64,000 nucleotides of DNA from Aplysia californica. Its lineage: Eukaryota. Below the pieces are notes generated by a model, which did not search any database, had not been told where the DNA came from, and saw only the letters and a list, made by a program, of their open reading frames with translations. The position numbers and the translations under genes were made by a program. The stretch is from positions 803,942-867,941 of the forward strand of contig NW_004797481.1 of the NCBI RefSeq assembly GCF_000002075.1, written 5' to 3'. Within the stretch, counting starts at the first letter, position 1. Every line of letters begins with the position of its first letter. Of the stretch, positions 10,101 to 15,550 are shown piece by piece.

Positions 10101-12251
10101 AAGCCAAGAAAAAATTACGTTATAGCACAAAAGTAAGCTAATTTGATCGTCTTCAAAGATGCTATGGCTATTTCATTGTTCGAATCGAGCCGAACTATGC
10201 GGGTTGCCATTTTGTTTTGCCCGGAAGTTCTCGCAAGATCTACTCCTCCCCTCTCTCTGTCTCTTTCTGAATACTGTCTATCGGTGTGGACGATCAAATT
10301 GACCAAAACAAAGTTAAAAAATGATGTTAAAACACAAAGGTCAAAAGTAAATTAATTTGGTTGTCTACAAAGATGCTACGGCTATTTAACTTTTCGAATC
10401 GAGCCGAACTACGCGGGTCGCCATTTTGTTTTGACCGAAAGTTCTCGCGCTACTCCTCTCTCTGTCTCTTTCTCTCCACTGCCCACATACAAAATTGTAC
10501 GCTTTTAGTAGGCTACAGTTGTAATGGAACGTTTGTTCACGGCACAGAATTCTACAGTTTTTCTGTTATCACAGTGTAGAATTCTGTGGTTTAGGGTGAA
10601 AGCAAAATTTGTTGGCCTAGATCTAGGCTATAACGGTAAACGCGCACCGGGTGAGAATAGCCAAAAGACTAGCCTGCACTATTCTCATCCCGGGTGAGAA
10701 TAGAGGTGGCCAGTCGATAAAATTAGCTTACTTTCGTGCTATAACGTAATCTTTGCTTTGCCTTTATCCATTTGATCATGAAAGTGGCTATTCTCACCCG
10801 CCGGAAGTTCTCGCAAGATCAACTCCTCCCCTCTTCTCTCTCTCTCTGTTTCTTTCTGAATACTGTCTATCGGTGTGGACGATCAAATTGACCAAAACAA
10901 AGTTAAAAAATGATGTTAAAACACAAAAGTAAATTAATTTGGTTGTCTACAAAGATGCTACGGCTATTTAACTTTTCGAATCGAGCCGAACTACGCGGGT
11001 CGCCATTTTGTTTTGCCCGGAAATTCTCGCGCTACTCCTCTCTCTCTTTCTCTCTCCACTGCCCACAGACAAAATTGTACGCTTTTAGTAGGCTACAGTT
11101 GTAATGGAACGTTTGTTCACGGCACAGAATTCTACAATTTTTCTGTTATCACAGTGTAGAATTCTGTGGTTTAGGGTGAACGCAAAATTTGGTGAACGCG
11201 TGTCTGTGGGCAGTGGAGAGAGAGAAAGAGAGAGAGAGAGAGAGGAGTAGCGCGAGAATTTCCGGGCAAAACAAAATGGCGACCCGCGTAGTTCGGCTCG
11301 ATTCGAAAAGTTAAATAGCCGTAGCATCTTTGTAGACAACCAAATTAATTTACTTTTGTGTTTTAACATCATTTTTTAACTTTGTTTTGGTCAATTTGAT
11401 CGTCCACACCGATAGACAGTATTCAGAAAGAGACAGAGAGAGAGAGAAGAGGGGAGGAGTAGATCTTGCGAGAACTTCCGGGCGGGTGAGAATAGCCACT
11501 TTCATTCTCACTCCGGGTGAGAATAGAGGTGGCCTTTGATCATCCACATCGAAAGAAAGTATTCCGAAATTAGGAAAAACAGGTCTTGTTTCACACCGGG
11601 TGAGAATAGCCTACGGTGGCAAGTCTCACCCAGAGCCCAGAGAGTGAGAGGTCGATCGTATTTCTATTCTCACCCCAGGTGAGAATAGCCACTTCCTCTA
11701 GTCAAACCCTACCCCAGAGCGTCCAATATCTTCCAATTTGAAACTGGATCACAATAGATAGGCCTAGACCATTAAAGAAGGAATCCACATGCATGCCACT
11801 ATCCCAGCCCTGTACTGTTGCTGACTGCTGTCAATTGCAACCCCACCCCTTCAATCTTGCCACTCTGCTGTGTTCTTTGAGCCCACTGAACTGTACTTAG
11901 TAAGTGATGCCAATCCTTCAGCTTCCATACCACAAAAACGTTGTAGGGTAATAAGAACCATAGTAATACCCGCCTCTTCTTGTTGTCAAAGCACACACCT
12001 CTCGACCGGTAAAAGAGTGAGTGGGATCAAGACAACTTTAACTTTAGTCAAAGGTACCTCTGCCTCTTATATTTTTTCTACACATAGCATAGCACAGCGA
12101 CGTTGCGATGAATTCTCCTCGACTCCGGACGTCTAGATTTCTAGACATTGTATGTGTCGTGAATAAGAACGACATTACAATTGAACTCCCTTACCGAAAA
12201 TGGACTCGAAGCATTTGGATCCGCAAAAGGGTTGGAATCAAAGTCGGACAT
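1060..12251 (-). CDS. SCAMP1: Secretory carrier-associated membrane protein (SCAMP), 5' part. Exons 12251-12195, 7603-7496, 5612-5481, 1129-1060; gene continues beyond window start
   Basis: Spliced translation MSDFDSNPFADPNASSPFS|DPSVQQAAGSGAPRQGALDDYNPFAEGGNQTRPANQ|SAGVPPPRSATAQPAIMTPSEDPPPYSQSSAQKVDTSELQKRQE|ELERKAAELQRKEQEMKNAQMAG. This matches the SCAMP N-terminus (NPF repeats, coiled coil RQEELERKAAEL). All junctions are GT-AG and in phase. Confidence 0.95.
3327..3841. mobile_element. hAT-like MITE
   Basis: 8-bp TSD GTTACTAT (3319-3326, 3842-3849); imperfect termini CAGTGCCGGGCGGTACC / GGTACCTGCCCATCCCTA. Confidence 0.75.
5481..5612 (-). CDS. SCAMP1: SCAMP coding exon 3
   Basis: tacag|SAGVPP...QPAIMTP...PPPY...ELQKRQE|gtggga, 132 nt. 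Confidence 0.92.
6248..7475 (+). mobile_element. 5'-truncated, decayed RNase-H-encoding LINE (I group)
   Basis: Frameshifted peptides LDRVQNEAM.MILG, VVVYTDGS, SSMRMEIEAI, WIFTPGHAGVKGNERAD; 10-bp TSD ACAAGAGAAT (6238-6247, 7476-7485). Confidence 0.9.
7496..7603 (-). CDS. SCAMP1: SCAMP coding exon 2
   Basis: ttctttccag|DPSVQQ...DDYNPFAE...ANQ|gtgaac, 108 nt. Confidence 0.93.
8101..8471. mobile_element. Tc1/mariner (Tigger/pogo-like) MITE
   Basis: TA|CAGTCAAAC ... GTTTGACTG|TA; related sequence at ~60468-60636 in reverse orientation. Confidence 0.75.
9941..10711. mobile_element. Nested full-length copy of the same MITE, inverted
   Basis: 9-bp TSD AGTCGATAA (9932-9940, 10712-10720); reverse complement of the outer copy. 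Confidence 0.88.
10780..11534. mobile_element. Second nested copy, rearranged into a foldback
   Basis: 9-bp TSD TTTGATCAT (10771-10779, 11535-11543); inverted arms 10780-11071 and 11201-11503. Confidence 0.85.
12195..12251 (-). CDS. SCAMP1: SCAMP coding exon 1
   Basis: ATG at 12251, MSDFDSNPFADPNASSPFS, donor gtaag. Confidence 0.95.
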
Positions 12252-12329
12252 TTTGAGGTGTCCTGTGAGGTTCCACAGTAGTCAAATATTGATTCTGATC
12301 AGGAACAGGGCGATTCACTCCATAAACAT

Positions 12330-12390
12330 ACTCGGCGGAAATCAATATGACGCATGCGCACAAGTCATGGTCACATGAAATGACGTCATG
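12330..12390. promoter_or_regulatory. SCAMP proximal promoter motif cluster (NRF1-like, CLEAR/M-box-like, CRE)
   Basis: CGCATGCGCA 12351-12360, GTCACATGA 12370-12378 and TGACGTCA 12381-12388, about 100-140 bp upstream of the ATG. Confidence 0.6.
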
Positions 12391-12690
12391 TCTTTTTCGT
12401 GAGATTCAAAACTGTCATAAGTTTATTATTAGAAGCGGTTATATTCTTTGCCCTAGATGATCATTCCGATGTATTTTTCACAGCAATCAATTTGATTTGA
12501 AAAATTTGATTAGATACAGAACATTTTTTTCTTTTATAACAAAATCTTCGAACTTGTTGTTTGCTCAATACAAATGCCAACTGGCAATGTTGGTTAGACT
12601 ACAAGTACGGCACGGTTAATTATGTTCCGTTGGTTGTGGAACCGATTGTCAAAGAGGTTATTATAAGTTAAATTTATTGTAATCATTTGT

Positions 12691-13220
12691 TTGTTTTGTT
12701 TTGTTTAGTATAGGGTTTTACGGCGCTCGCAACTGCATAAGGTCATATGAGCGCGCGGGACACACCTAATACTTTTTTTGGTAGGAAATTTTGAATTTTG
12801 CCCGGGTGGCGGCCGAAGCCTACTCTTATCGATTTTAGACCACCAAGGGATCTTTAACGTGCGCAACTTGCACACGGGCCCTCCGAGATTTCTCGCCCTT
12901 GTCCGAGAAGGCTAGGTGTAGATCTTTCCTACCAGAAGATCAGGGGTGTGGCAGAAAGACAGCTGTAAGAAAGAGTCAAGGAGTAGCAGTAGAAAGGCTG
13001 CAGAAAGAGTCAGGAGCCCAGAGGATGGGGCAGAGGGGGTGGGGGCAGAAAGAGGAGACGAAAGCAGACGACAGAATATTGCAAGAGAGCAGGAAAGGAG
13101 GTGAAAGGAGACAATTTTAGAGAAGAAATTTTTTTAATTTTTCTGTCGCTACCCGGATTCGAATCCGGGACCTTTGAATGAGAGGCCGACACCTTAACCT
13201 CTAGGCCACGAGAGCCCCCC
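12691..13220 (-). mobile_element. tRNA-derived SINE with Meta/MESC-like core (family A)
   Basis: Head GGCTCTCGTGGCCTAGAGGTTAAGG...GATTCGAATCC (A/B boxes); core CCCGTGTGCAAGTTGCGCACGTTAAAGATCC; 13-bp TSD TGTAATCATTTGT. Confidence 0.88.
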
Positions 13221-14298: not shown

Positions 14299-14894
14299 TG
14301 TTTGATGATTACAAATGTATTCGAATTCGGAGCTGTAGTGTCATAGCCTAAAACATAATTACATGTATTTCTCTGCTTTCCTGAGAGGGCAACATGATCA
14401 GGAGGTATAACGGTTTCGAGTTTTGTAAATAACTTTTGTAGGCGAGCCAGTCCATCTGTCTTCCTTCTTTGCACCCCTCCACCCCGCATGCTGAGCCTCG
14501 AGATCTCTGAAAGAACGAGTCTTTTAAAGCTGTCCATAAATACATGTATTATAGTTCTATAGGCTATGAGTATAGTAGTCCTTGGCATAGGCCTACCGAT
14601 GGTGCAGGGCAAAAATTCTGCGCTTGATTATTGTGGTTCATAGATGCTGTGGCAACAATTATGACACCGATCACTGCTTATGTAATTTAAATTGTATTTC
14701 TCACAGGTCGCAGGCAGATACATTTTGCCTTTTTATGGCGAGGCCTATCCTTGACAAATTAAATATAACAAAAGAAGGAATGTGGTAGCAACTTTGAAAT
14801 TGTTCTTAATCTAGTATGCAGCGAAGAAAAAATTCGGATTTTGTAAAGAAAAAAACATACAAATAATAGATCTAATATCAGTTCAATAACACCT

Positions 14895-15100
14895 AGCATC
14901 TGTGGTGTAGCGGTTTGGCGCTTCGCTGTCTCACATTGGAGACCCCAGTTCGATTCCTAGACGGGGTAATTTTTAACATCTCAGTCTTTCTGCTTGGACA
15001 TTGTATCCCTCTCAACCCGGGTAGGCCCTGACAGATAGAGTTGGAAACCCGCCTTCTAACTGATCTAAATTGGGTCGTTAAAACATCTAGGGTCTTCATT
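14895..15100 (+). mobile_element. tRNA-headed SINE (family C); reverse copy at ~62060-62217
   Basis: GTGGTGTAGCGGTT...GTTCGATTCC; matches the reverse complement of 62130-62217, plus a shared CCCTCTC..GGCCCTGACAG block. Confidence 0.65.
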
Positions 15101-15169
15101 GAAAAAAAAATTCAACTAGATTCTAGGCCTAGGCTATAAAACGGAATCATCGTTTAGGCCTATTCAGAG

Positions 15170-15419
15170 AACTACGTGGCTGGAAGATGTAAAACATAGC
15201 TCTATCTCGTGTCTTCCGGTGAAACGAAGAGCCACTGCTCAAGCTCCACTCCCAACTCCCAAGCGAAACTTCCGCTGGATCCTTACGAGAAGGCGTTGAC
15301 CATCTTGAGCGTCTACAGTCTACTCTGCCTTCAAGACAGATTGTTTACCTTCTATTTTCTTTTTCTTTGGTGATCTGGTAAGCGAACATCAACGCTGAGG
15401 ACCTAAAGCTTCGAAAAAG
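15170..15419 (+). promoter_or_regulatory. AP3B promoter/5' UTR region
   Basis: CpG-enriched, with ETS-like CTTCCGG and ACTTCCG motifs upstream of ATG 15420. Confidence 0.4.
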
Positions 15420-15550
15420 ATGGCAGGAAACGGTGGGTTTCAAGCATCGTCATATGCAAATGACAGACCACCGAGCTCGACCGGCAGTGGGGATGGGGAT
15501 ATGAGTGCTGACCCCGCAAGCAGTGGCTTTTTCACAACTGATTTTAAGAA
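15420..15550 (+). CDS. AP3B1: AP3B exon 1
   Basis: MAGNGGFQ...[13 protein letters not shown], donor gtgagt. Confidence 0.9.

What the first reader, a model, noticed from the sequence alone, without database searches (positions are those of the whole stretch)
12195..15550. SCAMP and AP3B are head-to-head, as in human: candidate ancient bilaterian microsynteny
Seen: divergent start codons separated by 3,168 bp. Established: human AP3B1 and SCAMP1 are divergently transcribed neighbours at 5q14.1, and paralogs AP3B2 and SCAMP2/5 are both on 15q. Both proteins act in endosomal, synaptic and secretory vesicle traffic. Inference: the pair has been kept since the protostome-deuterostome ancestor, suggesting shared bidirectional regulation of two functionally linked genes.
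Basis: partly seen in the sequence, partly recalled or inferred. Interest (0 to 1): 0.7.

Follow-up and report, generated by a model that had tools for sequence, protein, structure and literature searches.

The report
Old head-to-head SCAMP–AP3B gene pair
Two vesicle-traffic genes sit back to back in this sea-slug DNA and are also neighbours in humans, probably an inherited arrangement of a kind already known from hundreds of gene pairs, with no good sign that they share one promoter.

Summary
The SCAMP matches Aplysia californica.

The link looks old. Both genes share a contig in 10 of 10 assessable gastropods, with consecutive locus tags in two. Human AP3B1 and its neighbour (SCAMP1, ID recalled) are 65.8 kb apart. 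Published data put SCAMP and a tubulin chaperone between amphioxus Otp and Rx, and list OTP–AP3B1 as an ancient block.

It is not obligatory. The genes lie on different chromosomes in 4 of 9 bivalves and 847 locus tags apart in Solemya. Adjacency and orientation were not shown in any non-gastropod invertebrate. The 15q paralogues are 71–76 genes apart.

A shared bidirectional promoter is unsupported. A third of the spacer is repeat, and promoter-type motifs form two clusters 2.8 kb apart. Co-expression was not testable.

Verdict: a probable new, or possibly already listed, member of the known class of about 600 ancient gene pairs.

The parts
12195..12251 (-). SCAMP coding exon 1 (start codon, first NPF motif)
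   Evidence: identical to P0003 residues 1-19; GT donor
7496..7603 (-). SCAMP coding exon 2 (second NPF motif)
   Evidence: AG/GT ends, in frame
5481..5612 (-). SCAMP coding exon 3
   Evidence: 100% to A. californica SCAMP1 X2, E 1e-16
1060..1129 (-). SCAMP coding exon 4 (charged, probably coiled-coil stretch); the transmembrane part lies beyond the window
   Evidence: Pfam SCAMP domain covers P0003 residues 125-300
12252..15419 (.). Start-to-start spacer, 3,168 bp, 41.6% GC, includes both unmapped 5' UTRs
   Evidence: no gene
12352..12388 (.). SCAMP-proximal motif cluster: NRF1-like, M-box/CLEAR-like and CRE sites, 100-137 bp from the SCAMP start
   Evidence: CRE reached in 0 of 500 shuffles, NRF1-like in 1 of 500, M-box in 28 of 500; motifs recalled and chosen after seeing the sequence
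12687..13219 (.). Interspersed repeat in the spacer
   Evidence: 90% identical over 544 columns to 54,824-55,354; (D13, D14, D19)
13958..14305 (.). GA/GT microsatellite tract in the spacer
14896..15071 (.). Older repeat (SINE-like by my reading) in the spacer
   Evidence: 71% to 62,036-62,216
15213..15275 (.). AP3B-proximal pair of ETS-type sites, 145-207 bp from the AP3B start
   Evidence: 2 observed, mean 0.056 in shuffles, reached in 1 of 500; post hoc
15420..15550 (+). AP3B coding exon 1
   Evidence: matches the Bulinus and Bradybaena AP3B N-terminus
15420..46982 (+). Whole AP3B (AP-3 beta subunit) coding span, 24 exons, 1,086 aa

Best explanation
This is an inherited head-to-head pair of two unrelated trafficking genes, probably already adjacent or nearly so in the last common bilaterian ancestor, in the neighbourhood of Otp and TBCA. 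Each gene most likely has its own proximal promoter: a CRE/NRF1/M-box cluster for SCAMP and ETS sites for AP3B. The two promoters sit back to back with a repeat-tolerant spacer between them. The pair persists mainly because a separating breakpoint must fall in a short interval that holds the 5' control DNA of both genes, so it is a small and costly target. In chordates the Otp block may add a further hold. The constraint is weak, since the spacer grew to 66 kb in human and the pair broke in several bivalves. Shown: gene structures, orientation here, repeats, co-location proxies. Inferred: ancestral adjacency, promoter function, cause of retention.
For: Five are scaffolds of 0.31-2.2 Mb (Elysia marginata, Physella, Lottia, Candidula, Plakobranchus). 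Locus tags are consecutive in Patella (SNE40_004973/4) and Bradybaena (BsWGS_01514/5). The SCAMP tree broadly follows the species tree, and the AP3B-linked copies of Bradybaena and Candidula are sisters (SH-aLRT 97, quick tree). Human order is OTP 266, TBCA 267, AP3B1 268, next gene 269. AP3B1 and SCAMP1 share block 1516 in coelacanth and turtle. AP3B2 and SCAMP2 share a 24-row block on one coelacanth scaffold, consistent with proximity before the vertebrate genome duplications. In amphioxus, SCAMP and a tubulin chaperone are among 7 genes in 162 kb between Otp and Rx (PMC2938728). OTP=AP3B1 is listed in 3 of 5 invertebrates (PMC7530604). A specific head-to-head partner would arise by chance at 5e-4 to 2e-3 for assumed linkage groups of 300-1,000 genes. 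Spacer: 1,057 of 3,168 bp are repeat, with two motif clusters and none of the four motif types in the middle 2.57 kb. 5'-5' is the commonest and best-kept orientation among ancient pairs (PMC3514665).
Against: No gene order was read in any genome but this window; contig length and locus tags are proxies, and positional numbering of tags is assumed. Bivalves: 4 of 9 on different chromosomes (Mya, Dreissena, Mercenaria, Sinanodonta), 1 on different scaffolds (Mytilus edulis), 4 on the same chromosome, of which Solemya is 847 tags apart; none shown adjacent. Tubulanus, Owenia and Branchiostoma share a chromosome only, which chromosome-scale conservation predicts anyway. Lingula entries give different scaffold lengths (232,920 against up to 788,523; unresolved). 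In the readable part of the 49-genome database, all 5 AP3B rows and all 9 SCAMP rows are 'Vertebrata novel', though that file is cut and needs blocks of 3 or more genes. A genome-wide reader has thousands of pairs to pick from, so a two-lineage match alone is not proof. The promoter motifs were chosen post hoc and no start sites are mapped.
Confidence: 0.5

Rival explanations
1. Hitch-hiking on the Otp genomic regulatory block. AP3B and TBCA are bystanders whose introns carry Otp enhancers. SCAMP stayed because it abuts the 5' end of AP3B. The pair says nothing about vesicle biology.
For: OTP=AP3B1 (3 invertebrates) and OTP=TBCA (2) are listed as ancient regulatory blocks. Amphioxus SCAMP and a tubulin chaperone lie between Otp and Rx.
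Against: In this window the pair stands with no detectable Otp or TBCA in the 17 kb after AP3B: 0 of 227 frames hit Homeodomain or TBCA and there is no homeodomain motif. The scan also missed a real dynein exon, and 1.9 kb there is N, so sensitivity is limited. Which three invertebrates the key 10110 denotes is not stated in what I could read.
Confidence: 0.2
2. One reading: a shared bidirectional promoter or enhancer co-regulates two functionally linked trafficking genes, and selection on co-expression keeps the pair.
For: Divergent orientation. Ancient 5'-5' pairs are co-expressed above matched controls, and those with conserved orientation average 29 kb apart in human, so a long spacer does not exclude it. 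ETS and NRF1 sites are typical of bidirectional promoters, and M-box/CLEAR sites of lysosome-related genes (recalled).
Against: The spacer is 3.2 kb here and 65.8 kb in human, against the under-1-kb signature used in PMC3514665. A young repeat sits inside it. The two motif clusters share no motif type. The pair is not among the 52 top co-expressed head-to-head pairs in Table S2 of PMC7530604: none of the 7 SCAMP or 4 AP3B1 hits in that supplement is in that sheet. SCAMP5 loss affects VGLUT2 vesicles, not AP-3-dependent VMAT2 vesicles. The pair is broken in several bivalves.
Confidence: 0.18
3. Coincidence: both genes belong to one ancestral chromosome and became neighbours independently in gastropods and chordates.
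For: Only two lineages show adjacency. Bivalves do not. Same-chromosome location in four other groups fits shared chromosome ancestry alone. Thousands of pairs are open to chance matching.
Against: Per-pair chance is about 1e-3 (assumed group sizes). The AP3B neighbourhood is independently known to be old.
Confidence: 0.12

Closest known systems
Conserved ancestral microsyntenic pairs (CAMPs; Irimia et al. 2012, PMC3514665), 5'-5' class, e.g. HSPE1-HSPD1, HADHA-HADHB
   Same: Two unrelated genes, head to head, neighbours in a mollusc and in vertebrates; Lottia is reported among the best keepers of such pairs.
   Different: Linkage in four major lineages is not shown here. The spacer is longer than in the named bidirectional example, and the products are not known subunits of one complex. 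Whether the pair is already among the 595 could not be seen (no supplement).
OTP=AP3B1 / OTP=TBCA ancient genomic regulatory block (Touceda-Suarez et al. 2020, PMC7530604, Table S1 rows 87 and 115)
   Same: Same AP3B gene; the human order is OTP-TBCA-AP3B1-next gene, so the pair is the flank of this block.
   Different: That block joins a developmental regulator to bystanders and does not name SCAMP; no Otp or TBCA was detected in this window.
Homeobrain-Rx-Otp cluster (Mazza et al. 2010, PMC2938728)
   Same: In amphioxus, SCAMP and a tubulin chaperone lie inside the Otp-Rx interval.
   Different: The paper mentions SCAMP only as an intervening gene and never AP3B; the limpet and insect clusters are described as compact.
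Vertebrate blocks 1516 (AP3B1+SCAMP1) and 1823 (AP3B2+SCAMP2/5) of Robert et al. 2022 (PMC8851819, supplement 4)
   Same: Both gene families co-occur in two paralogous vertebrate blocks.
   Different: Classed there as vertebrate novelties; the gastropod adjacency would push the two-gene core back to Bilateria.

Membership tests
CAMP (Irimia 2012) | The two genes are non-paralogous | tested here: met
   Pfam SCAMP versus Adaptin_N/AP3B1_C
CAMP (Irimia 2012) | Neighbours in the focal genome | tested here: met
   No intervening gene detected
CAMP (Irimia 2012) | Within four intervening genes in at least four major lineages | tested here: inconclusive
   Molluscs (gastropods) and vertebrates yes; amphioxus likely from two papers combined; no fourth lineage shown; chromosome-level only in annelid and nemertean
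CAMP (Irimia 2012) | Orientation conserved across species | not testable with these tools
   No animal genome context available; human divergence recalled
Bidirectional-promoter gene pair | Divergent orientation | tested here: met
Bidirectional-promoter gene pair | Transcription starts under 1 kb apart | tested here: inconclusive
   Start codons 3,168 bp apart with repeats from 12,687 to 15,071, so unlikely, but start sites and non-coding exons are unmapped; human gap 65,828 bp fails it
Bidirectional-promoter gene pair | One shared element drives both genes; correlated expression | not testable with these tools
   Needs expression and reporter data; two separate motif clusters argue against
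Genomic regulatory block (Otp) | A developmental transcription factor gene next to the bystander | tested here: inconclusive
   None detected in 17 kb after AP3B; the window ends inside SCAMP; scan sensitivity limited
Genomic regulatory block (Otp) | Conserved enhancers in bystander introns that contact the regulator | not testable with these tools
   No orthologous DNA or contact data
AP-3 beta subunit (AP3B) | Adaptin_N trunk, acidic hinge, AP3B-type C-terminal ear; closer to beta3 than beta1/2 | tested here: met
SCAMP family | N-terminal NPF repeats plus transmembrane SCAMP domain | tested here: met
   NPF part in the window, identical over 122 aa to P0003, whose residues 125-300 carry PF04144; that part is off-window

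The most novel reading that the evidence does not exclude
SCAMP-AP3B is the hard core of a bilaterian-ancestral Otp-TBCA-AP3B-SCAMP locus that survived in gastropods after detaching from Otp. It is kept because a shared regulatory input (for instance an M-box/CRE-type organelle-biogenesis programme) couples an adaptor subunit to a vesicle membrane protein. The paired bivalves that lost it would then be a natural experiment on what keeps head-to-head pairs together.
Probability: 0.15. Interest if true: 0.55.

Novelty: new member of a known kind. Interest (0 to 1): 0.3.

Why it matters
If confirmed, it adds one pair to a class of about 600 known ancient neighbours and extends the published OTP-TBCA-AP3B block by one gene and into molluscs. 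Its value is as a test case: the pair seems kept in gastropods and vertebrates, broken in some bivalves, and apparently separated from Otp here. That pattern could separate co-regulation, enhancer hitch-hiking and slow decay as causes. It does not reveal a new mechanism.

Tried and rejected
Accession-number look-up of cluster members, meant to test adjacency in amphioxus, annelid, nemertean and brachiopod, could not be made, so those lineages rest on contig length only. No tool gave animal genomic DNA beyond the window, so order and orientation elsewhere stayed unchecked.

Consecutive coelacanth accessions for SCAMP2 and AP3B2 (XP_014342760/761) first looked like adjacency. I rejected that after reading the block: it has 24 rows and the numbering does not look positional, since CPEB1, which I recall as the neighbour of AP3B2, is 776.

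The Rfam scan gave only sub-threshold hairpin hits outside the spacer. The Pfam scan of 272 frames gave 6 frames with sub-cut-off hits, all rejected. The Atlas search of the 63,255 exon gave nothing. The careful tree did not finish; the quick tree is cited (51 named rows picked by hand, unnamed entries and extra isoforms left out, no SCAMP2-5).

Supplements: none held for PMC3514665; no SCAMP or AP3B hit in the readable files of PMC13508932 (main tables too large) or PMC10719294 (one file unreadable); PMC8851819 file 4 is cut; the 1,538-pair list is not itemised in PMC7530604. Any of these may already list the pair.

Searches for a paper on this pair's synteny (listings seen, 30 of 68) showed none by title or abstract start. 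Searches for a direct SCAMP/AP-3 link (25 of 48 listed) showed none.
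Full report
Observation. The window holds two intron-rich animal genes pointing away from each other. On the minus strand a SCAMP gene starts at 12,251; its first four coding exons (12,251-12,195, 7,603-7,496, 5,612-5,481, 1,129-1,060) have canonical splice sites and give 122 residues identical to the start of Aplysia californica SCAMP1 isoform X2. The remainder is off the window. On the plus strand an AP-3 beta gene starts at 15,420 and ends at 46,982, with 24 coding exons and 1,086 residues without an internal stop. It is beta3 rather than beta1 or beta2 by Pfam C-terminal domain and by match to solved structures. 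No gene was detected between them (0 of 45 frames pass a Pfam cut-off).

The spacer. Self-comparison with the window marks 1,057 of 3,168 bp as repeat: a 533-bp element 90% identical to a copy at 54.8-55.4 kb, a GA/GT microsatellite, and an older 176-bp element. This is a lower bound, since only the window was available for comparison. Promoter-type motifs (names recalled, chosen after reading the sequence) fall in two clusters. NRF1-like, M-box-like and CRE sites lie at 12,352-12,388, beside SCAMP. Two ETS-type sites lie at 15,213-15,275, beside AP3B. None of the four types occurs in the middle 2.57 kb, and the clusters share no type. Shuffle frequencies were 0, 1 and 28 of 500 for CRE, NRF1-like and M-box, and 1 of 500 for the ETS pair; these are optimistic because post hoc. 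The simplest reading is two separate promoters back to back. Start sites are unmapped, so this is inference.

Other invertebrates. No tool gave animal genomic context, so I used two proxies printed by the homologue searches: identical longest-contig length and submitter locus tags (the best 120 of 3,619 AP3B hits and of 2,192 SCAMP hits were listed). Species with only one of the genes listed, or without a contig length, were not counted (Biomphalaria, Arion, Haliotis, Bulinus, Lymnaea, Octopus, echinoderms, Saccoglossus, insects and others). Gastropods: 10 of 10 share a contig. Five are scaffolds of 0.31-2.2 Mb, and Patella and Bradybaena have consecutive tags, spanning limpets to land snails. 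Where SCAMP is duplicated (Bradybaena, Candidula, Babylonia), one copy is with AP3B, and the linked Bradybaena and Candidula copies are sisters in a quick tree that broadly follows the species tree. Bivalves: Pecten, Saccostrea echinata, Mytilus galloprovincialis and Solemya share a chromosome, but Solemya's tags are 847 apart. Mytilus edulis entries are on different scaffolds. Mya, Dreissena, Mercenaria and Sinanodonta have them on different chromosomes. Tubulanus, Owenia and a Branchiostoma hybrid share a chromosome, which does not show adjacency. Lingula is unresolved. The accession look-up that might have refined this could not be made.

Chordates, from papers. PMC7530604 (seen: part 1 of 5, Methods, supplement part 1 and searched rows) gives human chr5 gene indices OTP 266, TBCA 267, AP3B1 268 and ENSG00000085365 269, with 65,828 bp after AP3B1. 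That ID is SCAMP1 from recall; PMC4726092 speaks of an intergenic SCAMP1/AP3B1 region (passages), and PMC13748587 lists both with TBCA and WDR41 among 12 genes in 0.9 Mb of the barn owl Z (passage). Human divergence is recalled. PMC8851819 (part 1 of 7; supplement 4 searches and part 297) places AP3B1 and SCAMP1 in block 1516 and AP3B2 with SCAMP2/5 in block 1823, both called vertebrate novelties. In coelacanth AP3B2 and SCAMP2 share a 24-row block on one scaffold. That suggests proximity before the vertebrate duplications, not adjacency. The file is cut and its method needs three genes, so a two-gene bilaterian link would be invisible.

PMC7530604 Table S1 lists OTP=AP3B1 as an ancient regulatory block seen in 3 of 5 invertebrates (amphioxus, acorn worm, urchin, centipede, limpet; key 10110, digit order not stated) and OTP=TBCA in 2. 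PMC2938728 (passages and section 18) reports that in amphioxus seven genes, including SCAMP and a tubulin chaperone, lie in 162 kb between Otp and Rx. Together these make an Otp-TBCA-AP3B-SCAMP neighbourhood in the chordate ancestor likely, if the first digit is amphioxus. In this window no homeodomain or TBCA frame was detected in the 17 kb after AP3B (0 of 227 frames). The scan missed a real dynein exon and 1.9 kb of that stretch is N, so absence is tentative.

Chance. For assumed linkage groups of 300-1,000 genes, a given gene has a specific partner head to head with probability 5e-4 to 2e-3. Over thousands of pairs some two-lineage matches are expected, so gastropod plus vertebrate alone is suggestive. 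With the amphioxus neighbourhood I put inherited adjacency at about 0.8.

Mechanism. PMC3514665 (parts 1-3 of 7; no supplement) describes 595 such pairs, 55% head to head in human and 69% in Lottia, explained by co-regulation or by enhancers in bystander genes; its main text does not name these genes. My best reading (0.5) is an inherited back-to-back pair with separate promoters, kept by weak constraint because breakpoints must hit a short stretch of double 5' control DNA. Rivals are hitch-hiking on the Otp block (0.2), true shared regulation (0.18) and coincidence (0.12). For shared regulation the functional case is thin: both proteins act in endosomal and vesicle traffic (established knowledge), but PMC13394401 (passages) finds SCAMP5 needed for AP-3-independent vesicles and binding AP-2. 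My searches showed no direct SCAMP/AP-3 link (listings only). The breakage in four bivalves shows that the link is dispensable.

Novelty. The searches named under Tried and rejected showed no paper describing this pair as ancient, but several supplements that might list it could not be read (PMC13508932 seen as passages). It is at most a new member of a well-described class, with a useful tie to the Otp block. Interest 0.3.

Noticed in passing
window 58,466-58,624 (+): A single exon of an axonemal dynein heavy chain (named hits DNAH12, DNAH7 and DNAH3, E 2e-12 to 8e-9, about residue 3,230-3,280 of about 4,000), 11.5 kb after the AP3B stop, amid N gaps. No other dynein exon was noticed; it may be a fragment, an assembly artefact or part of a gene spanning the region.
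   Followed up: partly
window 62,724-62,825 and 63,255-63,431 (+): Two exon-like frames with splice signals that recall the C-terminal part of hillarin/KY-type proteins (recalled resemblance); no Pfam or Atlas support.
   Followed up: partly
window 9,330-11,700 (SCAMP intron 1): Dense nest of inverted and direct repeats, up to 255 nt at 99% complementarity, probably stacked fold-back transposons; the sub-threshold Rfam microRNA hit at 11,012-11,270 is this hairpin.
   Followed up: partly
window 17,648-18,016 (-) and 6,239-6,784 (+): Retroelement remnants in introns: an RNase H frame in AP3B intron 1 (Pfam E 6e-6) and a 182-aa open frame in SCAMP intron 2 with no Pfam hit.
   Followed up: partly
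window 39,320: AP3B intron 17 uses a GC donor; the other 22 introns are GT-AG.
   Followed up: no
P0014 (Elysia marginata SCAMP, 697 aa): The annotated protein carries a long unrelated insert in the middle of SCAMP, probably an annotation artefact.
   Followed up: no
window 7,546-7,532 (-), SCAMP exon 2: The second NPF motif overlaps a tyrosine-based YxxF pattern of the kind read by adaptor mu subunits (recalled); it is also present in Lottia and Elysia. Whether AP-3 reads it is untested.
   Followed up: no
Mya, Dreissena, Mercenaria, Sinanodonta entries: SCAMP and AP3B fall on different chromosomes in all four, suggesting a single old translocation in this bivalve group.
   Followed up: no
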